From an uncultured cyanobacterium (GTDB lineage: Bacteria; Cyanobacteriota; Cyanobacteriia; Cyanobacteriales; Cyanobacteriaceae): 64,000 bases of DNA. The stretch is taken from assembly GCA_963710605.1 (NCBI GenBank), contig CAVQBA010000004.1:1248001-1312000 (forward strand), read 5' to 3'. Below the pieces are notes generated by a model. It worked only from the letters and a program-made list of their open reading frames with translations. It searched no databases and was not told where the DNA came from. The position numbers and the translations under genes are program-made. Positions 1 to 14,169 of this stretch are shown here, in pieces. How positions within the stretch are numbered: the first letter of the stretch is position 1; each line of letters begins with the position of its first letter.

Positions 1-1936
1 AATTTTAGTCAAGTAAGTATCTCTTTAACTGAATCAACAGGAAATGGTGTAGTCTCTATTGTGCAAGATGTTAATAATAATGGCATCACAGATTCAGGAG
101 AATCAATTTACAATGTGAGTTCTTTTTCCGATCAAGGAGTGGTCAATTTAAATAGTGGTATTTATTTTGCCAGAGTTGCGATAGTTGGTAATAGTGATGC
201 AACTAACTATGACTTGAATTTAAGCGGTACAGCTCTCGATAATCCTAATCCTCCCGTCAATCCAGGTAATAGACCGAGCGATGCTTATGATGTTGGTATT
301 CTCAATGCACCACAAAGTTTTAGCCAGACGGTTTCTCAAGTTGATACAGATGATTATTACCGCTTCAGCTTAAATGATTTTAGTCAAGTAAGTATCTCTT
401 TAACTGAATCAACAGGAAATGGTGTAGTCTCTATTGTGCAAGATGTTAATAATAATGGCATCACAGATTCAGGAGAATCAATTTACAATGTGAGTTCTTT
501 TTCCGATCAAGGAGTGGTCAATTTAAATAGCGGTACTTATTTTGCCAGAGTTGCGATAGTTGGTAATAGTGATGCAACTAGCTATGACTTGAATTTAAGC
601 GGTACAGCTCTCGATAATCCCAATCCTCCCGTCAATCCAGGTAATTCACCAAGGGAAGCTTACAATCTTGGTCTTTTGAATACACCACAAAGTTTTAGCC
701 AAACAGTTACTCAAGTTGACGCAACTGATTATTATCGATTTAGCTTAGATGATTTTAGCCAAGTAAGTATCTCTTTAACCGAATCAACGGGAAATGGTGT
801 AGTCTCTATTGTACAAGATGCTAATAATAATGGCATCAGGGATTCAGGAGAATCAATTTATAATGTTGAGTTCTTTTTCCGATCAAGGGATGGTCAATTT
901 AAATAGCGGTACTTATTTTGCCGAGTTGCGTATTGGTAATAGTGATGCAACTAGCTATGACTTGAATTTAAGCGGTACAGCTATCAATAATCTTAATCCT
1001 CCCGTCAATCCGGGTAATTCACCAAGGGAAGCTTACAATCTTGGTATTCTCAACACACCACAGAATATTAGCCAGACAGTTACTCTAATTGATAGAACTG
1101 ATTATTACCGATTTACTTTATATTATAGTAGTCAAGTAAGTTTATCTTTATCTGAATCAACTGGAAATGGTGCAGTCTTTATTGTGCAGGATGTCAATAA
1201 TAATGGCATTAGTGATTCAGGAGAATCAATTTATAATGTTGGTTCTTTTAGCGATCAAGGGGTAGTCAATTTAGATAGTGGTACTTATTTGCCTAAGTGC
1301 TTAGTTGGTAATAGTGATGCAACTAGCTATGACTTGAATTTAAGTGGTATAGCTCTCAATAATAATTTAACTTTAGTACAGGGAACGGCACAAATTGCTT
1401 ATGTAGCCTATTACGGTCGTCCTGCTGACCCCGGTGGTTTGGATTATTGGAACGGACGTTTAGGTGATGAAAGAATCAACTATTCTCCTCGTAGCGGAGA
1501 CACTCTCACCGATTCTGAGCGAAGTGTTTATAACGAGTTGGTTTCAGGTTTCGGTAATGTCGAGGAAGCTAATCGAATTTTTGATAGTTTAAATAATCGT
1601 CAAAAAGTAAATCAGGTTTATCAGTTTGCTTTTAATCGTGATGGAGATTCAGGTGGTTTGGATTATTGGACTAACCAAATCGATCGAGGTTTTGTCAACC
1701 TAACTACTTTCGCCTTAGAAGTGGCATTGGGTGCACAAAACCAAGATTTTGAAGTCTTGGCAAATAAAATTGAGAGTGCCGATTTATTTTCTCGAGGAGT
1801 TGAGACTAATCCAGATGGCAGTGCTTATTCTGGCTCTAGAGGCGAAATTTTTGGTCGTGATTGGTTAGCAGGTTATGGCAATACAGTTGCTACCATAGCT
1901 AATGTTGATACTGCTTTAAGCGAATTAAACAGTTAA
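1..1936 (+). CDS. Surface protein, 5'-truncated, with tandem pre-peptidase C-terminal (PPC)-like repeats and a C-terminal DUF4214/RsaA-N-like domain; apparent frameshift near 870-930
   Basis: ~375-bp repeats (DYYRFSL...VQDVNNNGI...YDLNL) start at ~3, 378, 753 and 1127. C-terminus has AYYGRPADPGGLDYW and FNRDGDSGGLDYW motifs. ORFs 61..906 and 809..1936 continue the same repeat in different frames. Confidence 0.75.
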
Positions 1937-4602: not shown

Positions 4603-6240
4603 TTACTTAAGTTTTCCCGATCGTAATATACTGACAATCAACCATAAACCAAGAAAACTAGCAGTAGCAAAAAGAATACCACTGAGAATGAGCAAATTTT
4701 TGCTTGTAGCGGTACTAGAAATAATCGCCGCACCGATGGTTAACGAGCCAACTACGATACTAAAAGAGAGTCGGTTAGCTGAATAATCCAAACTTCTTCT
4801 TAAACCGTCTATTTCAGCGATTCTTAAATTCCAACGTAACTTTTCAGAACTAATACGCTCTAGAATAACATCAAGCTGACGGGGCGATCGTAAACTAATT
4901 GATTTTAAATCCAAAACCGTCCTAAATAAAGTTTGAAAAGGAGTATCACCCACTAACTGACGACGAAATAAATCAGTCATTAAAGGTTTGATTTCTTCAA
5001 GCAAATTGATTTGCGGATTCAAATTACGGGCAACACCTTCTAAATTAGCCAAACTTTTAGCATACAATCCCATATTTCCGGGCAGACGGATTTTGTTTTT
5101 ACGGGCAACTCCCAAAATGTTATAAAAAACTTCACTAAAATTTAACTGCGAAAGTGATAGATTATAATACTTCCTTAACATCCGTTGATAATCATTTTCT
5201 AATTGAGCTAGATTAGTTTTACTCGGATTACCTTCAGATAACTCTAAAGTAAGTTGAGCACATCTTTGAGCATCAATATCAACAATAGCCAGTAACATCT
5301 CAGTTAACAATTGCTGTGTATGGACATCTAATTTACCCACCATGCCACAATCGATAATTCCCACCTTACCATTATCAAGATAGAATATATTACCAGGGTG
5401 AGGATCAGCATGAAAAAAACCATCAACAAATATCTGCTGAAAAAATGCCCGAAACAACAAGGTACTAATTTCTTGACGTTTAAGAGTATCATCTACAGCG
5501 ATATTCGCTTCTAAAAGTGGCTTACCGTATAACCATTCTAAAACTAATATTTTTTTACTCGTAAATTCCCAATAGACATGAGGTACAATCAATTTTTCGG
5601 AATCTACCCAACTACTATTAGCCAAGTTAAGACATAATTTATCTGTATAAGCACCTTCTTGACAAAAATCTAATTCGGCTTTGACTGCTTCTGTGAATTC
5701 CTCGGCTAGTGCAACAATATCATAGTCACTACCTATATCTGTCATCGCCATAATATCCGCAATCCCTCGTATTAATTTAATATCTTGGGTTACTATCTGC
5801 TCAATATAAGGGCGTTGAATTTTGATGGCTACTTCTTCCCCTGTGATTAATGTAGCACGATGTATCTGAGCGATCGAACCTGCGGCGACAGGTTGAGGAT
5901 TAATTTTGCTAAAAACGTTTTCTAAAGGTAAAGGTAATTGCTCCCTTAAAGTTGCTTCCATCAACTCCCATTCTACAGTAGGCACTTGGGCTTGAAGTGC
6001 AGTTAAGGCTTCGATATATCGAGGAGGTAATAAATCTGGACGAGTACTTAATAGTTGCCCAAATTTGACATAAAATGGTCCTAATTCAATTAATATTTTG
6101 CGAAATACTTCTGGTTGTGGTAGTCTTGGTTCATTAGATTTACCACGAGTTAGTATTCCTCGCATATAATCCCAACCATTACTAAATACAACTTCGATAA
6201 TTTCTCTTTGTCTGGTACTAGTTTTAGTTAATGAAAACAT
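4603..6240 (-). CDS. AarF/ABC1/UbiB family atypical kinase
   Basis: LGPFYVKFGQLLSTRPDLLP, AAGSIAQIH, VAIKIQRP, FFHADPHPGN, C-terminal TM pair; likely start MFSLTK at 6240. Confidence 0.92.
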   Translation of the reverse strand: MFSLTKTSTRQREIIEVVFSNGWDYMRGILTRGKSNEPRLPQPEVFRKILIELGPFYVKFGQLLSTRPDLLPPRYIEALTALQAQVPTVEWELMEATLREQLPLPLENVFSKINPQPVAAGSIAQIHRATLITGEEVAIKIQRPYIEQIVTQDIKLIRGIADIMAMTDIGSDYDIVALAEEFTEAVKAELDFCQEGAYTDKLCLNLANSSWVDSEKLIVPHVYWEFTSKKILVLEWLYGKPLLEANIAVDDTLKRQEISTLLFRAFFQQIFVDGFFHADPHPGNIFYLDNGKVGIIDCGMVGKLDVHTQQLLTEMLLAIVDIDAQRCAQLTLELSEGNPSKTNLAQLENDYQRMLRKYYNLSLSQLNFSEVFYNILGVARKNKIRLPGNMGLYAKSLANLEGVARNLNPQINLLEEIKPLMTDLFRRQLVGDTPFQTLFRTVLDLKSISLRSPRQLDVILERISSEKLRWNLRIAEIDGLRRSLDYSANRLSFSIVVGSLTIGAAIISSTATSKNLLILSGILFATASFLGLWLIVSILRSGKLK

Positions 6241-6435
6241 AAGTAAATAATTGACAATTAACAATTACCTTCACCAGTTAAAGTGAGGCTTTTATCCTTT
6301 GCTTTTTGGTAATAATTTAGAGACTCTTTGTTTAATATCTTACTCTAACCTTGAATTCACATTTTTTTTTATGGTAGTCATTCTAACCCTATTTTCCAAC
6401 AACAAAGAATTGTTATCAAAATCCTAAGTAAGTCA

Positions 6436-6550
6436 ACAAAGGGCAAAGGTAAGTAATGAGTAAGGAGTAAGAAGTAATAAGAAAAAATAACACCGTTACT
6501 ACCATTAAAATCCAATACGCCTATCAAAGAAGTATCCCCCCCATCCCTAC
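6436..6550. repeat. Dispersed intergenic repeat (CAAAGGTAA...ACTACCATTAAAATCCAATACGCCTATCAAAG)
   Basis: Related copies at ~20252-20330, ~41090-41143 (reverse strand) and ~45186-45253. Confidence 0.75.
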
Positions 6551-6846
6551 GCAGGGCTGTTTCATTCAAAGGAAGAAGAAAATAGCTATCTGCTCAAAAC
6601 AAATAGCTAGAAGCTATTACTACATACTCGATCGAGCGATTTGGTCATCTTATCTTTTTATTTTTAGAAAAAAACGGCTAAATTTACTGGTATTTCTTAG
6701 TTGTAGAAAATAGAAGAAACATAATTAATTGTTAAATCCGAATAATTTGTATGGTAAAAGTATTACTTATTACTTCTTACTTATTATTTCTTACTTATTA
6801 TTTCTTACTTGTTACTTTTTACTTCTTACTCGTTACTCACAATAAT

Positions 6847-7743
6847 CTAACATCCCGCATCTCCTACTACATCAAATTGCTGAGTTTTATCTTCTATTAT
6901 CACAGTTATTGTACCATTAGGAATATTAACCGATTCAATTTCACCTTTAGCACCCAAAGTCACATCGACTTCCACCAATATTCGATCGTCTTCTGTAGTA
7001 AAAACTTGATTTGTTTTTTGTCCGTAAAATTCTTCTCCTTGAGATGATTTTCTGATCAGTTTAGTTAACTTACCATCAAAAGACATAAATGCGTCAGTAT
7101 CTCCTTGAGTATCTTCTATTCCATTAAAGAATAAAAATCCTCTTTGATTAGTTTGGGCTTTTTTATCTAAACTCATACCACAACCGCCTCCACCCGCATC
7201 GAATAATTCATCGGTGGTGAATCTCGTAATTTCGATCGATGAAGAAGTTGTTTTATCTTCAAGAGTAACATTAGGTATTTCGGTTAGTAGTGTGTCACCA
7301 CAATAAATCATGACGGAGCGATATTCATTGATTGTGGTGGGCATGGTGTAATTCACTTTTGTCGGCGTAATTACTTGAATAGCAACGCCTTCTGGGGGAA
7401 TAGGTGAAAAAGAAATACGTTGTGCTGGTGGTTGTCGTCGATCGAGTATTCCGGGTTTCCATTCAACTTGATAGTTAGGAGTCGGCATATCCACTTCTCC
7501 TGATATATTTAAACGCAATTCACCATCCCCAACATTATCTATCCAAGCTTGCCAGTTACGACTTTGGGTTACTGTACAAGAAGAATTATTATTGATAGTT
7601 TGCACAATTTCGTTATTAGAAGATGTTAAGTTTTCCTCTGTTTTAGCACCTGTTATTTGTGAATTAGGATTATCACATCCAGCCATTACCAAAGAGAGAA
7701 AAATTAGGCAAGTTAAAAAGTAAGAATTAATTTTTTTAAACAC
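6847..7743 (-). CDS. Hypothetical lipoprotein
   Basis: Hydrophobic N-terminus ending in a lipobox (VMAGC); 298 aa. Confidence 0.7.
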   Translation of the reverse strand: MFKKINSYFLTCLIFLSLVMAGCDNPNSQITGAKTEENLTSSNNEIVQTINNNSSCTVTQSRNWQAWIDNVGDGELRLNISGEVDMPTPNYQVEWKPGILDRRQPPAQRISFSPIPPEGVAIQVITPTKVNYTMPTTINEYRSVMIYCGDTLLTEIPNVTLEDKTTSSSIEITRFTTDELFDAGGGGCGMSLDKKAQTNQRGFLFFNGIEDTQGDTDAFMSFDGKLTKLIRKSSQGEEFYGQKTNQVFTTEDDRILVEVDVTLGAKGEIESVNIPNGTITVIIEDKTQQFDVVGDAGC

Positions 7744-7956
7744 GATCGACTCTTAAGATTGATATTTCTTTTGTTTAGATAACTTTTTATCATGATGTCG
7801 GCAGAATACCCTTATGTCCTTGACTTAGGGATGAATGCCGACAAATCAATTGAGGGCGATTAGCCCATCCCCTCATTAAAAAAAATAAGTGAGAAAATTC
7901 AATTTTGTCACTTATAATTAAAATGATTAAAAAATACTGAATAATCAGTAATTCTC

Positions 7957-10900
7957 ATGATATTAGCTTTTTGCTACAAATTAAAACCTAGTTTGTCCCA
8001 ACAAAGGACGATCGCTCATTGGATGGCAATGTTGAGGTCGCACTACAACTATTGCCTAGCCGATCGAATTGGTAGTTATGAAGAAGTTCGATCGCCTAAA
8101 CTAGGAGAATATTGCGACTTGCGAACTAAGGCAGTTTGTTCTCCCTTAAGCTGTGCCATCTCTAAAAATTCTAATATGGGCGAACCATTTAAAGGTAATG
8201 GTAAAAGACGTAATGCCTATGAAATGCAATCTTCAGAACTACCTATTCTTAAAAAGTCTCGCCCGTGGTATGCCACCATTAGCTCAACTGTCCTTCAACA
8301 AAATCTTCGACGATTGAATGATGCCTTTGAGGGGTTTTTCAATGGTAAAGGCTATCCTGCTTTTAAAAGGCGTAATAAGTTTAAAAGTTTTTCCTATGCC
8401 CCAAACCAAGTTCAGTTTAATCCGCAAAAAGTCTATTTGCCCAAAATAGGATGGATGCGGTTTTTCAAGTCTAGGGCTTTTCCTAATGGGTTCACTCCCA
8501 AGACTGTTACCGTTAGGCAAAAAGCCGACGGGTACTATATATCTGTACGCTTGGAAGACAAAACTGTCCCTGACTTTGAACCAATGGAAATCGATCGAGT
8601 AAAATCGATTGTCGGAATTGACTTAGGAGCAAGACCTCATAAGTTATGTTGTTTGTCCACAGGAGAAAATATCCCTAATCCCATGTTTGCCAAACAATCT
8701 AGTAAACGTCGAACATTACTACACCGTAGGGCTAGTCGTAAAGTGAAAGGCTCAAAAAATCAAAAAAAAGCCTACCAAAAATTAAGCAAATTTGAACTTG
8801 GAGTTATAAATCAAAGAAATGATTACCAGTGGAAAGTGGGACACCAGCTAGTACGCAAGTTTGATGCGATCGTCATGGAAGCCTTGCAAATTCAAAATAT
8901 GACTCGTCGATGCAAACCAAAACTAGATGAGCAAGGGAAATACCTTAAAAATGGACAATCGGCTAAACGGGCATTAAGCCGCTTAATCCAAGATTGTAGT
9001 TGGGAAAAACTAAAGGGCAAAATACGTCAAGTCGCTGAAAAGTGTGGGCGTATTTTTCTAGAAGTAGAACCTAAATTTTCCTCTCAAACCTGTTCGTCTT
9101 GTGGGTTCAAAAGTAAAGAAAACAGAAAGAAAGAATCATTTTTGTGCCTAAACTGTGGAATGTCTCATGATGCGGATACCAATGCGTCGCTCGTATTAGC
9201 AACTCGTGGAATTGAAAAACTTGGTATTAGTGAAAATACCCTATGGGGGGTCACCCCAAAAGTTACGGCTACCTCTGAAACCTCAGAGGTGACTAGAAAT
9301 AGTCAGGAGATCAAATCAGTGGCGTTGGCGACTGAGCCTAGCAACCCTCTACAACGTGCGATTCGTTCTTACGAAACCTTTATCTAAAGGTGGATGTGAG
9401 GCTTTCAGTTAAGTAACTCCCCCTGAGTTGTGCTCGCACTTTAATCCTTAACTGAATTAATAACTTGTAATTCATGGAGGTGAATCAGTATCCTAGAACA
9501 TAAGTCCTCCCGACCTTGTGCGGGTTGAAAAGCATACAGCGTCCCCACTCGTGAGGGTGGTGAGAAGTTTCCCCAATTTCTGAGGTGACAACTCAGAGGT
9601 TGAAGCGGGAGTAAAAGCGGATAGTAGCGATAATTGCTGAAAACGCCTCACCGCAAGCAAGTGTTTTATAAGCGACCCAGGACTGAGATAATCTCAGGGA
9701 AATGGACATCGTGGGGTAGATAATCAAAGTATCTATTGAAGCGTCTCAAAGGGTTAGCAAGGGATATAAGCTAGTGGATAATGCCACACCTTGCATTCCG
9801 AAATAACGGAAGAATAATAATATGTGGTTCTGTTGTAAAGTCACATCGCACAATTAATTCAAATAGGCGTAAAGGTACACCCTAAAGAACACAAATCAAC
9901 TGGTTGCACCGTCGCAACCAGCAATGGAATACAGGAACGAAGTAAACCAATATAAGCCCCAGAATAACTGGTAGGTCGTCAAACCGTATGCTTAAGTTGG
10001 GAAAGGATGGGTCAAGAAGCTAATGCCTAGCTCGAAAACACGAGCATTGCTGGAAAAGAGAAGGGGTAACGCCCAGGATACGCAGACGTGACTCGCAATA
10101 TATCAAATGCTAAAGGTGTCAGTAGTAGTAAATATGTCTAATACAGAATCGAATCAGAATACTGTGGAATGGGAAAATATCGATTGGCGTAAAGTCGAAA
10201 GATATGTCTTTAAGCTACAAAAACGCATTTACGCTGCTTCACGTCGTGGTGAAGTTAAGAAAGTACGCAAACTCCAAAGAACCCTTATGAGGTCTTGGTC
10301 TAATAAGGTACTTTCGGTCAGAAAGGTAACACAGGATAACAGAGGTAAGAAGACGGCAGGAGTGGATGGAGCAAAAGCACTTTCCCCAGAAGAACGTATG
10401 AACCTCGTAGGTCAACTAAAAATCACAGGAAAAAGTAAACCAACTCGGAGAGTATGGATACCGAAACAAAATAGTGGTGAAAGAAGACCATTGGGAATAC
10501 CAACTATATATGACCGAGCCTTACAAAACACTGTTAAATCAGCGATTGAGCCAGAATGGGAAGCTCGTTTTGAGTCAAACAGCTATGGTTTTAGACCAGG
10601 ACGGTCAGTCCACGATGCTATCAAGCAAATTAAAAATGCAATTCAAAAGAAACCAAAATACGTTTTGGATGCCGATATTGCAAAATGTTTTGATAAAATC
10701 AACCACTTATCCTTACTTAAGAAGCTCGGATACACGGGTAAAATCAGGCAACAAATTAAAGCCTGGTTAAAATCTGGGGTCATTGACCAAAAGGTTTTTA
10801 CTACTACGTCTGAGGGTACACCGCAAGGTGGGGTTATTAGCCCTTTACTCGCTAATATTGCCCTCCACGGGATAGAAATTATGTTAAAGGAGTTTGTCAA

Positions 10901-12130
10901 AACATTAGACTTGCGAAGAAAAGACTATCCAAGCAGTCAAATAAGTTGGCAGAAGAAAGTTCGTTCGCTGTCTTTTATAAGATACGCAGATGACTTTTTA
11001 CTAATACATGAGGACTTAAAAGTGGTCCACAGATGCAAAGAATTAATCTCTGAATGGTTATATGACATTGGACTAGAACTAAAACCATCAAAAACCAGAA
11101 TCACTCATATACTCAAACCAGAATTGAGCGAGGATAGAAAAGCTGGGTTTGATTTCCTCGGACATCATATACAGCAATATCCAATAAGTAAGTACCAAAG
11201 TGCGAAGCTAAATGGAAAACCACTAGGCTTTAGGACTCTCATAACACCAAGTAAGGAAGCACGTTTAAAGCATCAGAAAGATATGAGGGACATTGTGAGA
11301 AAACATAAAAACTCTCACCAAGCAAAATTAATCAAGAAGTTAAATGAGTGTATAAGAGGTTGGTGTAATTACTATGTCAACTCAGACGCTCAAACTGTTG
11401 GTGAATTTTCCAGACAAGACCACCTTGTATATCAAAAACTTAGAACTTGGGGCAAACGGAGGTGTAAAGGAAGCCTCAATAAAGCACATAAGAAATACTG
11501 GTGCAAAGTAGGTAATAATAACTGGGTATTTGCAGTCAATCAAGAGACGAAGAATCCCTTGAGGTTACTAACACATAGTGAATATAAATGTAGTAGTACA
11601 AACTATGTGAAAGTTAAAGATGACGTAAGCCCCTTCAACGGTGACTTGGTTTACTGGAGTACACGGATGGGCAAAAGCCCAGAGATGCCAAATCGAAAAG
11701 CGAAATTGCTTAAGATTCAAAAAGGGGTCTGCCCTTGGTGTCAACTTAGATTTCGTGAAGAAGATGTATTAGAAGTTGACCACATTCAAGCTCGTGCCTT
11801 GGGAGGAAAGGACACATACAAAAATCTTCAACTACTTCACGGTCATTGCCACGATGAAAAAACTGCCTTGGATATGAAGGAAATTTGGAAGCACAAGACT
11901 CTCAGTGATTTTTTAAAATCTAATAATATATTGGAAAATTACAATTGGTACTGGGATGAAAACGATATTCTAATAACCTTCAAGAAAATAAAGTGAAGTT
12001 CAATAACAAGATAGATATGTTGAGTAGCCGTGTGAAGCGAAAGTTTCACGCACGGTTTCGGAGGAGAGGAGTAGAGTGGAAACACTCACTTCGACTCTAA
12101 CTATCGTTGTTTGAGTGGATGGACGGCTGA
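7957..12130 (+). CDS. tnpB: RNA-guided endonuclease TnpB, intron-split: exon 1 7957-9355, exon 2 12102-12130 (spliced 475 aa ending NPLQLSLFEWMDG; unspliced ORF ends at 9387)
   Basis: N-terminal YKLKPS, RuvC residues GIDLG / IVMEAL / DADTNA, zinc ribbon CSSC..CLNC; the exon join stays in frame. Confidence 0.9.
9356..12101 (+). mobile_element. Group IIB (chloroplast-like class) intron, 2746 nt
   Basis: 5' GTGCGATTCGTT; domain V AGCCGTGTGAAGCGAAAGTTTCACGCACGGTTT at 12026-12058; domain VI ending CGACTCTAAC; EBS1 GTTGTA at 9832-9837 and EBS2 AGGGTT at 9750-9755. Confidence 0.93.
10107..11996 (+). CDS. ltrA: Group II intron reverse transcriptase/maturase with C-terminal HNH endonuclease
   Basis: RT0 GKKTAGVDG, RPLGIPTIYDR, GTPQGGVISPLLANIAL, RYADD, X domain RGWCNYY, CPWC..EVDHI..NLQLLHGHCH; start may be 10134. 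Confidence 0.95.
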   Translation: MLKVSVVVNMSNTESNQNTVEWENIDWRKVERYVFKLQKRIYAASRRGEVKKVRKLQRTLMRSWSNKVLSVRKVTQDNRGKKTAGVDGAKALSPEERMNLVGQLKITGKSKPTRRVWIPKQNSGERRPLGIPTIYDRALQNTVKSAIEPEWEARFESNSYGFRPGRSVHDAIKQIKNAIQKKPKYVLDADIAKCFDKINHLSLLKKLGYTGKIRQQIKAWLKSGVIDQKVFTTTSEGTPQGGVISPLLANIALHGIEIMLKEFVKTLDLRRKDYPSSQISWQKKVRSLSFIRYADDFLLIHEDLKVVHRCKELISEWLYDIGLELKPSKTRITHILKPELSEDRKAGFDFLGHHIQQYPISKYQSAKLNGKPLGFRTLITPSKEARLKHQKDMRDIVRKHKNSHQAKLIKKLNECIRGWCNYYVNSDAQTVGEFSRQDHLVYQKLRTWGKRRCKGSLNKAHKKYWCKVGNNNWVFAVNQETKNPLRLLTHSEYKCSSTNYVKVKDDVSPFNGDLVYWSTRMGKSPEMPNRKAKLLKIQKGVCPWCQLRFREEDVLEVDHIQARALGGKDTYKNLQLLHGHCHDEKTALDMKEIWKHKTLSDFLKSNNILENYNWYWDENDILITFKKIK

Positions 12131-12349
12131 GGTAATTGGCTGTCAGAATTCCCATTGTCTAAGGCGATAGCCGTACGGTGGGGTTCTTCAACTAATCATA
12201 ATATTTACAAGACACGATCGATTTAATAATTGTTCCGAAAGCTTAATTAATTCTCTTTTTCTCATCGTATTACTTTTATTGATTACATTAAATTGTTCTG
12301 TAATCTTTCTTTAAGAGATGGTAGTATTTTTAGAATATCGATCGTTTTA

Positions 12350-13084
12350 CTATTTTGCTCTTACTAAACTTGGTTTTTGTGTCCAAAAATGTAACAAGTT
12401 TTCGCTAATTAACTCAGGTTGAAAATAATGAAAAAAGTGATCTCCAGTTGGGCATTGCCACAACCTATCTTCTGGTTTGAGTTTTGATTGCCATTTTTGC
12501 ATTTCACTCCAAGGTACAATTTTATCTTCAATACATCCTGCAATCATTAAGGGGCATTGAATAAAATCGATCGCACTTTTGGAATTACTTTGGTATAGTG
12601 AATGATTAGATAAAGAATAAGGGATTGCTTTTTCTAAAATTTTGATAAATGCAAGACGATAATGATGGCTATGACAACCAAATAAATATTTAGCTACATG
12701 GGCTAAAACTATCTCTTGACTACAATGCCAATTGTTTCGCCAAAAATAATAATAACTAAGCCAATCTACGGCTAAATTTGTACCTACTCCTAAAAGAGTT
12801 AGCGACTTTACTTTTTCGGGATATTTTTGGGCATAAAGTAAGCCTAGCAAACCACAAGTACTATGACCGACTAAATGAATTGGTTTATTTAATAAACTCA
12901 AATAATCATTTAATAAATAAACCGCTTGCTCAATTGATGTGCCTTCGTCTTCTGTTTGTTCATATTCCCAATGAGCAATATCGACAGATTTTGATAAATA
13001 TTGAATTGCCGGTAAATTAAAGCGACGCAAGTAAGGATTTGTGTTTAACCAAAGAACTTCTGGATTTTTGAACATCTTTCTCAA
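12350..13084 (-). CDS. Alpha/beta hydrolase fold protein
   Basis: IHLVGHSTCG nucleophile elbow; GDHFFH. Confidence 0.8.
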   Translation of the reverse strand: MRKMFKNPEVLWLNTNPYLRRFNLPAIQYLSKSVDIAHWEYEQTEDEGTSIEQAVYLLNDYLSLLNKPIHLVGHSTCGLLGLLYAQKYPEKVKSLTLLGVGTNLAVDWLSYYYFWRNNWHCSQEIVLAHVAKYLFGCHSHHYRLAFIKILEKAIPYSLSNHSLYQSNSKSAIDFIQCPLMIAGCIEDKIVPWSEMQKWQSKLKPEDRLWQCPTGDHFFHYFQPELISENLLHFWTQKPSLVRAK

Positions 13085-13175
13085 TTAGAAAATAAAAATA
13101 CAGCGATCGCAATGATAACTTTTTAAAACAAAGGGCAATTACGAATTTATTTTAAACTTAATTACCGCTTCTTAT

Positions 13176-13190
13176 TGATAAATATTATCA
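13176..13190. promoter_or_regulatory. Putative Fur box
   Basis: TGATAAATATTATCA, one mismatch from the 7-1-7 consensus TGATAATnATTATCA, ~100 bp upstream of the hydrolase. Confidence 0.5.
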
Positions 13191-13362
13191 TCAACGATTT
13201 TAATAGGATAACTATTTTTAGATTTTATTGCAAGTTATTATCATTAATCTTGATTACAATCATTAAAATAATTGCAACGATCGATATTAGGTTGATTTCA
13301 AATCAAAATGCCATGAAAATGGTTAAGGATGATCACAAAATATTTATGTTTAGATTGTTTTA

Positions 13363-14169
13363 CTATTGCTTAAACTCAGTCACCAAAGTAACATTAACCC
13401 ATCTACCTTGCTCATCGTATTGTCTAATCATGCGTAATCTTTTATTCGGTTCGACTAACCAAGCAAACTCAACAAAGAAAGAATTTCGAGGTTTAATTGT
13501 GATAGGTGTGACTGAAGATGCACCATCAGGAAGTAATAAGACACGGATATCTAACTCTCCTTGACTAAAAGTGATCGCATTGCCATCTATTTGCCCTTTT
13601 GTTGTAACATTCATTTGGGGAGTGACTAATGTTTGAGACAAAGTATCACCTTGTTTTTTGATCGTTAAAGTAGTCTCATAATCATCTGTATTACGCCAAT
13701 CAGGATATAGGGTTTGGGCTTTTCCTCGCCATTCTCCTTCTAATTGTTCGATCGATAATTGTGGGCGTTCGACAGCATTGCTATTTTGTCTAAATTCCCT
13801 GATTAAAGTAACAGTTTCTAGATTACCTTTAGTATCAAATAGTTGTACTAACCGACAACGTCGATCGTTAATAATAAAACCATATTCAGCCGCAAAGATA
13901 GCATAAAGGCTAAATTGTTGCGAACCTTTAGCAAAATGACCTTCTTCAAATAAAAAGATGTTACGATTGAGATAAGTAAATTCACTAACAACAGGTTGAT
14001 TATTTTCACGAGTTAGAGTTAGTCTGAGAGTTTTATTTTCGTTAAGAGATTCAAGTCTCAATTCAGAAGGAGTATTTTTAATTTGCTCTGCTGTCGGTGA
14101 AAACTGAGTAAACGAACCGTTCCAAATACCTGTATTACTAACTAATCGTTCCCATTGAGAAATATACAT
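13363..14169 (-). CDS. DUF3598 family protein
   Basis: SQWERLVSNTGIWNGSFT, LEGEWRG, LLPDGASS, RMIRQYD motifs. Confidence 0.75.
   Translation of the reverse strand: MYISQWERLVSNTGIWNGSFTQFSPTAEQIKNTPSELRLESLNENKTLRLTLTRENNQPVVSEFTYLNRNIFLFEEGHFAKGSQQFSLYAIFAAEYGFIINDRRCRLVQLFDTKGNLETVTLIREFRQNSNAVERPQLSIEQLEGEWRGKAQTLYPDWRNTDDYETTLTIKKQGDTLSQTLVTPQMNVTTKGQIDGNAITFSQGELDIRVLLLPDGASSVTPITIKPRNSFFVEFAWLVEPNKRLRMIRQYDEQGRWVNVTLVTEFKQ

What the first reader, a model, noticed from the sequence alone, without database searches (positions are those of the whole stretch)
7796..12210. Group II intron nested in tnpB and its omega-RNA: a possibly splicing-dependent RNA-guided nuclease
Seen in sequence: the intron starts (GTGCG, 9356) about 10 codons before the apparent tnpB stop and ends (..CTCTAAC, 12101) 90 nt before a right-end-like hairpin and TCAA. 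Joining 9355 to 12102 gives an in-frame tnpB end and a contiguous ~200-nt right-end region. All three RuvC acidic residues are intact, as are the intron YADD and HNH motifs. Established: TnpB guide (omega) RNAs come from the tnpB 3' end and right end; group II introns often target IS elements; IStrons have the opposite nesting (tnpB inside a group I intron). Inference: the omega-RNA scaffold is split by 2.75 kb, so a functional TnpB RNP would need maturase-assisted splicing. The intron would then both ride on and gate the element.
Basis: partly seen in the sequence, partly recalled or inferred. Interest (0 to 1): 0.9.

Follow-up and report, generated by a model that had tools for sequence, protein, structure and literature searches.

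The report
Group II intron splitting TnpB guide RNA
A self-splicing group II intron sits exactly inside the guide-RNA gene at the end of a small transposon that carries the RNA-guided nuclease TnpB, so the guide can only be whole after splicing; introns in such transposons are known, but a split TnpB guide RNA does not seem to have been described.

Summary
Window 7793-12191 is a tnpB-only IS200/IS605 element. It is preceded by the TAM-like TTTATCA and its right end stops at TCAA (12191). It carries an intact 2746-nt group II intron at 9356-12101.

The intron has a 5' GTGCG, an RT/maturase/HNH protein and domains V/VI. Intron-less homologues in related cyanobacteria read straight across the junction.

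An alignment of 23 homologues shows a covarying RNA scaffold of about 200 nt. Three helices lie upstream of the intron site, two straddle it and two lie downstream. The intron sits in the apical loop of one helix, 90 nt before the right end. Candidate EBS1 and EBS2 sequences in the intron pair with the 13 nt just upstream of the site.

So the guide (omega) RNA really is split, and only splicing can restore it. Splicing, and any "gating", remain untested because no RNA data could be found.

This is not an isolated case. Two further introns in the same genome sit in tnpB elements. Among 80 metagenomic loci with related introns, 13 have tnpB coding sequence on the intron strand and none on the opposite strand. 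The closest intron clade inserts 8-10 nt before right ends.

Introns in IS200/IS605 elements are in print (2010, 2016). I read this as a parasite on a parasite.

The parts
7786..7792 (+). TAM-like target motif TTTATCA directly 5' of the left end
   Evidence: Four close IS relatives (L059, L061, L072, L078) lose similarity to each other upstream of a shared TT(T)TATCA. The window has TTTTATCA at the aligned place. Calling it a TAM is inference.
7793..7956 (+). Left end (LE) of the IS200/IS605-type element, with the best promoter-like site (7889-7918)
   Evidence: LE start comes from the alignment with relatives. The promoter-like site matches 10 of 12 positions, but the number of sites in the region is not above the shuffles (15 found against 11.6 +/- 3.2).
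7957..9355 (+). tnpB exon 1 (codons 1-466 and the first base of codon 467)
   Evidence: Pfam OrfB_IS605, Cas12f1-like_TNB and HTH_OrfB_IS605. ISDra2 TnpB 8bf8 matches at E 1.3e-32, with the D/E/D motifs aligned.
9244..9355 (+). 5' half of the omega-RNA scaffold. Helix 1 is 9244-9258, helix 2 is 9272-9289, a GAAA hairpin is 9291-9304 and helix 3 is 9316-9335. The 5' arms of helices 4 and 5 are 9346-9348 and 9351-9354.
   Evidence: Covariation in 23 intron-less homologues. The window forms 32 of 34 consensus pairs. Third codon positions become as conserved as the others from helix 1 onward.
9343..9355 (+). Intron target: IBS2 AACCCT (9343-9348) and IBS1 TACAAC (9350-9355)
   Evidence: These are complementary to AGGGTT (9750-9755) and GTTGTA (9832-9837) in intron domain I. 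A related intron (L068) has ATCTC at the aligned EBS2 place, which matches its own exon GAGAT.
9356..12101 (+). Group II intron, 2746 nt, 5' GTGCG ... 3' CTAAC
   Evidence: Split BLAST match of an intact right end. Rfam RF00029. Sequence read directly.
9750..9755 (+). Candidate EBS2 (AGGGTT)
   Evidence: Three other hexamers in domain I also match the distal exon, so the assignment rests on spacing and on the L068 comparison.
9832..9837 (+). Candidate EBS1 (GTTGTA) in the loop of an ATGTG...CACAT stem
10107..11996 (+). Intron-encoded protein, 629 aa: RT (YADD), maturase X and HNH endonuclease
   Evidence: Pfam RVT_N, RVT_1, GIIM and HNH. The best solved relative is the T.el4h maturase/RT 6me0_C, E 2.9e-88.
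12023..12101 (+). Intron domains V and VI
   Evidence: Rfam Intron_gpII, 53 bits, full model 1-77.
12102..12191 (+). tnpB exon 2 (9 codons, stop at 12128-12130) and the 3' half of the omega-RNA scaffold. The 3' arms of helices 5 and 4 lie at 12107-12117, helix 6 is 12122-12144 and the terminal hairpin is 12145-12187. The right end stops at TCAA (12188-12191).
12192..12207 (+). Predicted guide segment (flank just 3' of the right end, CTAATCATAATATTTA...)
   Evidence: Position only. It follows from how TnpB guide RNAs are built (recalled knowledge) and was not tested.

Best explanation
A mobile chloroplast-like/IIB-type group II intron (RT-maturase-HNH) retrohomed into a tnpB-only IS200/IS605 element. 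It landed at a 13-nt site (AACCCTCTACAAC|T) that forms the 5' arm of a conserved hairpin in the middle of the TnpB guide (omega) RNA, 90 nt before the right end.

The element is transcribed from its left end as tnpB exon 1 - intron - exon 2. Unspliced RNA can give a TnpB with a different 10-residue tail, and it can give the intron protein. It cannot give a contiguous guide scaffold.

Maturase-assisted splicing rejoins the two halves. That restores the native tail and a scaffold of about 200 nt followed by the flank-derived guide. TnpB activity is therefore capped by splicing. This is a by-product of a parasite-on-parasite nesting, not an evolved switch.

The intron gains a harmless, transcribed, conserved and often multi-copy target.

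Shown: the anatomy, the intactness of the parts, the split scaffold, and the recurrence of such nestings. Inferred: transcription, splicing, and the dependence of the RNP on splicing.
For: Exact boundaries come from the split match of an intact homologous right end. All 12 intron-less loci examined read across the junction.

Scaffold: 34 pairs in 6 helices. 96.4% of cells are paired, against 31.5-50.7% with slid partners. There are 114 compensatory cells, against 12-28 slid, and 0 of 500 shuffles reach this. Helices 1-3 lie upstream of the site, helices 4 and 5 straddle it, and helix 6 lies downstream.

The window's joined exons keep 32 of 34 pairs. Folded alone they give the same helices, MFE -83.6 kcal/mol, z -5.3 against 200 shuffles.

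Third codon positions are relaxed upstream of helix 1 (0.61 against 0.78 and 0.82). From helix 1 onward they are not (0.87 against 0.88 and 0.82).

The parts are intact: RuvC motifs, a full IEP, domains V/VI and EBS/IBS complementarity.

Y1 transposase genes are present in the genome, 7 matches at E 1e-35 or better, so mobilisation in trans is possible.

Recurrence:
- Own genome: one intron sits one base before a tnpB right end, and one sits inside a tnpB ORF.
- Of 80 metagenomic loci with related introns, 13 have tnpB-like coding sequence on the intron strand and 0 on the other strand.
- Introns with identical or nearly identical IEPs sit in diverged IS copies.

Print: T. elongatus F4 introns lie at a conserved site in an IS200-family element (PMC2882425, passages). 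RT-HNH introns lie in cyanobacterial IS605 elements (PMC4810608, passage).
Against: There is no RNA evidence at all: no sequencing run could be listed. Splicing, the 5' end of the TnpB-bound RNA and TnpB activity are untested.

The element and the intron are each single-copy in this genome. No identical junction was found elsewhere: 0 hits in the metagenome pattern scan, and none in the 60 relatives searched. So there is no sign of ongoing activity of this particular pair.

Helices 4 and 5, which straddle the site, vary little. They have 6 compensatory cells in 2 of 7 pairs.

The structure was derived from the same alignment on which it was counted, which favours it over the slid controls. The EBS2 assignment is one of four hexamer matches.
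Confidence: 0.65

Rival explanations
1. Evolved gate or mutualism. The intron has been kept at this site because splicing control of the guide RNA regulates TnpB. An antagonism between TnpB binding and splicing, as in IStrons, would benefit one or both elements.
For: The closest intron clade (9 rows, support 96) includes four introns inserted 8-10 nt before right ends. So the guide-RNA region is hit repeatedly. IBS1 is the 5' arm of a scaffold helix, and EBS1 has the same sequence as that helix's 3' arm. Scaffold folding and exon binding could therefore compete.
Against: Insertion sites of related introns are spread over the whole tnpB gene: codon ~9, GFPKF|KKK, the zinc finger, the RuvC-III region, and right end -1, -10, -56 and -90. 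That looks like target opportunism. This pair is single-copy. There is no expression data.
Confidence: 0.1
2. Dead nest. The intron no longer splices efficiently in vivo, or the IS is no longer active. The locus is then a fossil in which the guide RNA is permanently broken.
For: Both partners are single-copy. The genome holds decayed examples. The intron at the C5 right end has an IEP that matches in three separate stretches and gave no open frame of 480 aa. Contigs C2 and C5 carry clusters of intron fragments. A relative (G012) keeps only domains V/VI plus 56 nt of a right end.
Against: Here every testable part is intact: the 476-codon tnpB frame with D/E/D, the 629-aa IEP with all domains, domains V/VI at full model length, 32 of 34 scaffold pairs, and EBS/IBS pairing.
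Confidence: 0.15
3. The split does not matter. The 90-nt 3' exon (helix 6, the terminal hairpin and the adaptor) is a sufficient scaffold. It is made from read-through or from a start inside the intron, so TnpB works without splicing.
For: Recalled from memory, no call: published work on ISDra2 found that 5' parts of the omega-RNA can be trimmed.
Against: Helices 1-3 upstream of the site covary strongly, and helices 4 and 5 need both exons. RNA-level constraint starts about 112 nt upstream of the site. No promoter-like site was found on the + strand in the last 1.3 kb of the intron (a weak test).
Confidence: 0.08

Closest known systems
Family F4 group II introns (CL/IIB1) of Thermosynechococcus elongatus, in insertion element ISEL1 of the IS200 family (Mohr, Ghanem & Lambowitz 2010, PMC2882425; passages read)
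   Same: [quoted passage not shown] The paper names this as a way for introns to proliferate. The window's IEP is most like the T.el4h protein among solved structures (E 2.9e-88).
   Different: The passages I read say nothing about tnpB, right ends or guide RNA. Whether the ISEL1 site lies in an omega-RNA is not known to me. The window's intron carries its own IEP, and its site is shown here to lie inside a covarying RNA scaffold.
[quoted passage not shown] PCC 7107 (Kapitonov, Makarova & Koonin 2016, PMC4810608; abstract and one Discussion passage read; Fig. S9 not seen)
   Same: The same kind of nesting in the same phylum: an RT-HNH intron inside an IS605-family element.
   Different: It was mentioned in one sentence, as a possible source of the HNH domain of IscB. 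It predates the discovery of omega-RNA. The insertion positions are in a supplement that I could not open.
IStrons: group I intron fused with IS605/IS607 tnpA/tnpB (Tourasse 2014, PMC4227781, listing only; Zedaveinyte et al. 2023, PMC10690162, abstract start and Introduction passage)
   Same: A self-splicing intron and a TnpB guide RNA share one transcript, so splicing and guide-RNA formation interact.
   Different: The nesting is opposite (transposon inside the intron), the ribozyme class differs (group I, no RT), and it is one composite mobile unit. Here Rfam finds only group II domains, and the intron is a separate retroelement inside the transposon.
ISDra2 TnpB-omega-RNA complex (PDB 8bf8, 8ex9, 8h1j)
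   Same: A TnpB with the same domain order and catalytic motifs. The guide scaffold overlaps the 3' end of tnpB and the right end.
   Different: About 30% identity or less. The scaffold here is a different, unnamed family, with no Rfam match at E up to 1 in three intron-less loci. It is interrupted by an intron.

Membership tests
IS200/IS605 family, tnpB-only (IS1341-like) element | TnpB with a RuvC D-E-D triad and a zinc finger | tested here: met
   Pfam OrfB_IS605 and Cas12f1-like_TNB. The motifs align to ISDra2 TnpB. The residue numbers of ISDra2 are recalled, not from a call.
IS200/IS605 family, tnpB-only (IS1341-like) element | Defined left and right ends with subterminal hairpins, insertion 3' of a short target motif, no inverted repeats | tested here: inconclusive
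   The right end ...TCAA is shared with homologues. The left-end start and TTTATCA come from alignment with four relatives. No empty site could be found, because relatives are only 66-71% identical in the neighbouring gene.
IS200/IS605 family, tnpB-only (IS1341-like) element | Structured guide (omega) RNA overlapping the tnpB 3' end and the right end | tested here: met
   Covariation in 23 homologues. Codon-position test. Binding to TnpB was not tested.
IS200/IS605 family, tnpB-only (IS1341-like) element | Y1 transposase TnpA, in cis or in trans | tested here: met
   There is no Y1 ORF in 7793-12191. The genome has 12 PF01797 matches, 7 of them at E 1e-35 or better.
Mobile group II intron (bacterial CL/IIB type) | 5' GUGYG, domain V with its catalytic stem, domain VI, 3' AY | tested here: met
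   GTGCG at 9356. RF00029 over its full length, 53 bits.
Mobile group II intron (bacterial CL/IIB type) | IEP with RT, maturase (X) and En (HNH) domains in domain IV | tested here: met
   Pfam RVT_N, RVT_1, GIIM and HNH.
Mobile group II intron (bacterial CL/IIB type) | EBS1 and EBS2 complementary to IBS1 and IBS2 at the insertion site | tested here: met
   There are 6 + 6 nt of complementarity in the right order, 82 nt apart. In 43 of 5000 shuffles both hexamers occurred in that order. EBS2 is supported by a matching change in L068. EBS3 was not identified.
Mobile group II intron (bacterial CL/IIB type) | Placement in the CL lineage or the IIB1 RNA subclass | not tested
   There is only the similarity to the T.el4h IEP and that paper's statement that T. 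elongatus introns are CL/IIB1 (PMC2882425). I built no tree with reference classes and no full RNA model.
Mobile group II intron (bacterial CL/IIB type) | Splicing and retrohoming activity | not testable with these tools
   No RNA run was listed.
IStron | Group I ribozyme that encloses an IS605/IS607 module | tested here: not met
   The Rfam scan of 6000-14000 at E up to 1 finds group II families only, and no group I. The transposon encloses the intron, not the reverse.

The most novel reading that the evidence does not exclude
A clade of cyanobacterial RT-HNH group II introns has specialised on the guide-RNA and right-end module of TnpB transposons. In these elements splicing is an obligatory step of omega-RNA maturation.

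Exon binding (IBS1/EBS1) and scaffold folding or TnpB binding compete for the same bases. That would give a group II counterpart of the IStron intron-versus-guide conflict.

TnpB-driven restoration of excised copies in polyploid cyanobacteria would in turn drive the intron.
Probability: 0.2. Interest if true: 0.8.

Novelty: new variant of a known kind. Interest (0 to 1): 0.6.

Why it matters
TnpB is the ancestor of Cas12, and how its guide RNA is made is an active question. The only described link between splicing and a TnpB guide is the group I IStron.

This locus is a clean natural case in which a group II intron cuts a TnpB guide scaffold in two. All parts are intact and the junction is defined to the base, so the case can be tested directly with spliced, unspliced and ribozyme-dead constructs.

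The survey also suggests that tnpB elements, including their guide-RNA region, are a major home of one cyanobacterial intron clade. That bears on three things:
- how both elements spread;
- annotation, since split tnpB genes and split guide RNAs will be missed;
- mining of TnpB and omega-RNA pairs for genome editing.

Tried and rejected
- RNA evidence: the look-up of sequencing runs listed no run, so no RNA holder is listed.
- Identical junction elsewhere: the pattern scan of metagenome contigs gave 0 matches. No junction-spanning match appeared in the 60 relatives searched.
- Empty site: the right flank finds only the neighbouring hydrolase gene at 66-71% identity in 11 of 20 relatives, and nothing in the one genome of the same genus (67% complete). 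So no empty site could be defined.
- Known omega-RNA families: there is no Rfam match at E up to 1 in the window region or in three intron-less loci.
- IStron reading: rejected, because there is no group I ribozyme.
- EBS1 check by comparison with L068 and L070: failed. The alignment falls apart after about 450 nt.
- G012 (L095/L106): I hoped for a second full case. It is only a relic, with domains V/VI plus 56 nt of a right end behind a znuABC-like operon.
- Related introns L068 and L070 have unrelated 5' exons.
- Left-end similarity by BLAST found only the start of the ORF.
- Earlier notes on this genome: none.
- The careful treekit search did not finish, so the quick tree was used.
- One literature query was rejected for a slash in a term and was re-sent without it.
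- Searches for a paper on a group II intron that splits a TnpB guide RNA found none. The library lacks most subscription journals.


Full report
**What is there.** The ORF at 7957-9387 is a TnpB. It matches Pfam HTH_OrfB_IS605, OrfB_IS605 and Cas12f1-like_TNB. Its best named solved relative is ISDra2 TnpB (8bf8, E 1.3e-32). In that alignment GIDLG, VMEAL and HDADTNA lie opposite GVDVG, GTEHL and HDRDENA, so the three RuvC acidic positions are kept. That these are D191, E278 and D361 of ISDra2 is recalled, not from a call.

From 9356 the sequence reads GTGCG. Rfam's group II model (domains V and VI) matches 12023-12101 over its full length at 53 bits, against a gathering score of 40. Between them, ORF 10107-11996 encodes a 629-aa protein with RVT_N, RVT_1, GIIM and HNH domains. 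It is closest to the T.el4h maturase/RT among solved structures (6me0_C, E 2.9e-88).

**Boundaries.** The element is single-copy in its 3.93-Mb, 7-contig genome, and so is the intron. I therefore looked for intron-less relatives elsewhere.
- A scan of genome contigs gave three loci at 51-52% protein identity, from cyanobacterial records. L042 continues across the predicted junction. L043 and L044 end with the same GGTGGGGTTCTTCAA as the window.
- A DNA search of 60 relatives gave closer copies. All 12 loci I pulled out read ...GAGCCTAGCAACCCTCTACAAC|T..GTTGTTTGAGTGGA... without interruption.
- The intact right-end region of one of them (L059:1540-1822) was searched in 301 genomes of the order and matched 19 of them. 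In the own genome it matched in two pieces. Query 16-193 ends at window 9355, and query 191-277 covers window 12099-12192.

The intron is therefore 9356-12101 (2746 nt). The right end stops at TCAA, 12188-12191, as it does in the homologues.

On the left, four close relatives lose similarity to one another upstream of a shared TT(T)TATCA. The window has TTTTATCA at the aligned place. So the left end starts at 7793, and TTTATCA is the likely target motif. The element is 7793-12191. It has no Y1 transposase ORF. The genome has 12 PF01797 matches, 7 of them at E 1e-35 or better.

**Is the guide RNA really split?** I aligned 23 intron-less homologues (A1). RNAalifold predicted 39 pairs, 22 of them with compensatory changes.

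I then counted a cleaned-up structure of 34 pairs in 6 helices.
- 96.4% of cells are paired, against 31.5-50.7% when partners are slid by 1-3 columns.
- There are 114 compensatory cells, against 12-28 when slid.
- 0 of 500 shuffles reach the observed values.
- Caveat: the structure was derived from this same alignment, which favours it over the slid versions.

Helices 1, 2 and 3 lie upstream of the intron site. Helices 4 and 5 use both exons. Helix 6 lies downstream, and so does a terminal hairpin that the alignment does not resolve. The intron sits between alignment columns 248 and 250, in the apical loop of helix 5.

Three further checks agree.
- The window's exons, joined inside a script, keep 32 of 34 pairs.
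- Folded alone, the joined exons give the same helices. They also give a GAAA-loop hairpin and the terminal hairpin. The MFE is -83.6 kcal/mol, z -5.3 against 200 shuffles.
- In the 20 closer homologues, third codon positions are less conserved than first and second positions in the purely coding stretch (0.61 against 0.78 and 0.82). From helix 1 onward they are equally conserved (0.87 against 0.88 and 0.82, then 0.85 against 0.84 and 0.81).

RNA-level constraint therefore starts about 112 nt upstream of the intron, at window 9244. That is just after the point where the alignment to ISDra2 TnpB ends (query residue 427). The scaffold is about 200 nt long, with 112 nt before the intron and 90 nt after it. 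It is not a family in Rfam 15.

**Why the intron is at this site.** The last 13 nt of exon 1 are AACCCT-C-TACAAC. Intron domain I contains AGGGTT (9750-9755). 82 nt further on it contains GTTGTA (9832-9837), in the loop of an ATGTG...CACAT stem. This is the arrangement expected of EBS2 and EBS1. Both hexamers occur in that order in 43 of 5000 shuffles. Three other hexamers also match the distal exon, so EBS2 is the less sure of the two. A related intron (L068) carries ATCTC at the aligned EBS2 position, which matches its own exon GAGAT at -13 to -9.

The target is the 5' arm of scaffold helices 4 and 5, which explains why it is conserved. The exact 13-mer is present in 2 of 23 homologues, and with at most one mismatch in 11 of 23.

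**Consequence.** The unspliced frame runs 10 codons into the intron and stops (476 aa). The join gives ...NPLQ-LSLFEWMDG-stop (475 aa). The tail varies in length among homologues, so the protein is probably little affected. The guide RNA, however, cannot exist as one molecule without splicing.

Everything testable is intact, which argues against a fossil. But no sequencing run could be listed. Transcription, splicing and RNP formation are therefore inference. The best promoter-like site lies in the left end (7889-7918), and there is none on the + strand in the last 1.3 kb of the intron. The number of sites in the region is no higher than in shuffles.

**This is not an isolated case.** The genome has 12 domain V/VI matches.
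- On contig C5, a tnpA-tnpB element ends ...GGGAGTATGTCA|GTGCG..., and the intron ends ...CCTTAC|CCGATAGG. Two intron-less sister copies end GGGAGTATGTCAC. So that intron sits one base before the right end, between scaffold and guide. Its IEP matches in three separate stretches and gave no open frame of 480 aa.
- On contig C6, an intron splits a tnpB ORF at ...GFPKF|KKKTRSVEYKTSGWKL.
- A genome of another genus (G012) keeps a relic. It has domains V/VI joined to the last 56 nt of a homologous right end, behind a znuABC-like operon.

A metagenome scan with the IEP found 362 relatives and kept 80 loci, at 49-76% identity.
- With the window's TnpB as query, 10 of the 80 have tnpB on the intron strand.
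- With a panel of 25 TnpB stretches, 13 of 80 do, and 0 of 80 on the opposite strand. Many contigs have almost no flank, so this is a floor.

The junctions fall into site families.
- 8-10 nt before a right end (...hairpin-GGG|AG(G)ATGTCAA): L107, L110 and L116 show both exons, L114 the 5' exon only, and L109 the 3' exon only. tnpB was detected upstream only in L107.
- After ...GLG(I/V)F: L122, L123, L125 and L126.
- In the zinc finger (...C|S.CG): L139, L142 and L164.
- At codon ~9 (YRIYP|): L149 and L153.
- Several single sites.
- The tnpB genes of L125 and L164 each carry two introns.

In a quick maximum-likelihood tree of 76 IEPs, the window's protein lies in a 9-row clade (SH-aLRT 96). Four of those rows are the right-end introns present in the tree (L107, L109, L110, L114). 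The enclosing 23-row clade (99) holds the zinc-finger and GLG(I/V)F families. The careful search did not finish, and rows shorter than 480 aa were left out, among them L116 and L150.

Introns with identical or nearly identical IEPs sit in IS copies whose exon sequences differ (L107/L114, L122/L123, L139/L142). That is what retrohoming into conserved sites would give, rather than co-transposition.

**What is known.**
- Mohr, Ghanem & Lambowitz 2010 (PMC2882425, passages read) report three T. elongatus introns at a conserved site in ISEL1, an IS200-family element. They name insertion into other mobile elements as a route to proliferation, and they class those introns as CL/IIB1.
[quoted passage not shown] The figure is a supplement I could not open, so I do not know where in the elements they lie.
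- The IStron preprint (PMC10690162, passages) deals with group I introns only.
- Three full-text searches and look-ups in five further papers found no description of a group II intron that interrupts a TnpB guide RNA. The library lacks most subscription journals.
- Earlier notes of this scan report a group II intron splitting an IsrB guide RNA in another cyanobacterium, and an intron at codon 10/11 of a tnpB. These are leads, not evidence.

**Verdict.** The most likely reading is a parasite-on-parasite nesting, in which dependence of TnpB on splicing is a by-product. An evolved gate is possible but unsupported. The kind (a group II intron in an IS200/IS605 element) is known. The interruption of a TnpB omega-RNA, and its recurrence at several scaffold positions, is a new variant that can be tested directly.

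Noticed in passing
G000:C5:124879-127260 (minus strand), outside the window: A second group II intron in the same genome sits one base before the right end of a tnpA-tnpB IS605 element (...GGGAGTATGTCA|intron|CCGATAGG). That is exactly between guide scaffold and guide. Its IEP matches in three separate stretches and gave no open frame of 480 aa. In unspliced RNA the 'guide' would be intron sequence.
   Followed up: partly
G000:C6:937362-939860 (minus strand), outside the window: A third intron splits a tnpB ORF in frame at ...GFPKF|KKKTRSVEYKTSGWKL. Another tnpB copy and a tnpA lie just upstream.
   Followed up: partly
L106 (G012:C11) 520-700, minus strand: A relic. Group II domains V/VI are joined to the last 56 nt of a homologous right end (...CGACTCTAC|CTAATTGGCGGTTAGAATCCC...TTCTTCAA). 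There is no IEP and no tnpB upstream, and it lies behind a znuABC-like operon.
   Followed up: yes
L107, L109, L110, L114, L116 (metagenome contigs): The closest relatives of the window's intron share a homing site 8-10 nt before IS right ends (hairpin-GGG|AG(G)ATGTCAA). In L110 and L116 no tnpB was detected in about 1 kb upstream, so the hosts may be miniature, end-only elements. L107 has a second right-end-like sequence about 200 nt downstream.
   Followed up: partly
L125 and L164 (metagenome contigs): Each has a single tnpB gene that carries two group II introns (two domain V/VI matches each, flanking tnpB coding segments).
   Followed up: partly
G000:C5:11000-30000 and G000:C2:3000-10000: Dense clusters of group II intron pieces: several IEP fragments and domain V matches within a few kb, on both strands. 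They may be nested introns or an intron graveyard.
   Followed up: no
L074 1385-1692; L089; L093: Variants of the same guide scaffold in relatives. L074 has a 24-nt insertion in the loop of helix 5, the same loop that the window's intron occupies. L089 and L093 keep only the last 150-200 nt, with unrelated sequence upstream, so they are solo right-end or guide remnants.
   Followed up: no
window 6847-7743 (-) and 12350-13084 (-): The neighbours of the element are a 298-aa protein with no Pfam match (it has a lipoprotein-like N-terminus) and an alpha/beta hydrolase. The hydrolase is conserved at 66-71% DNA identity in 11 of 20 relatives searched.
   Followed up: partly
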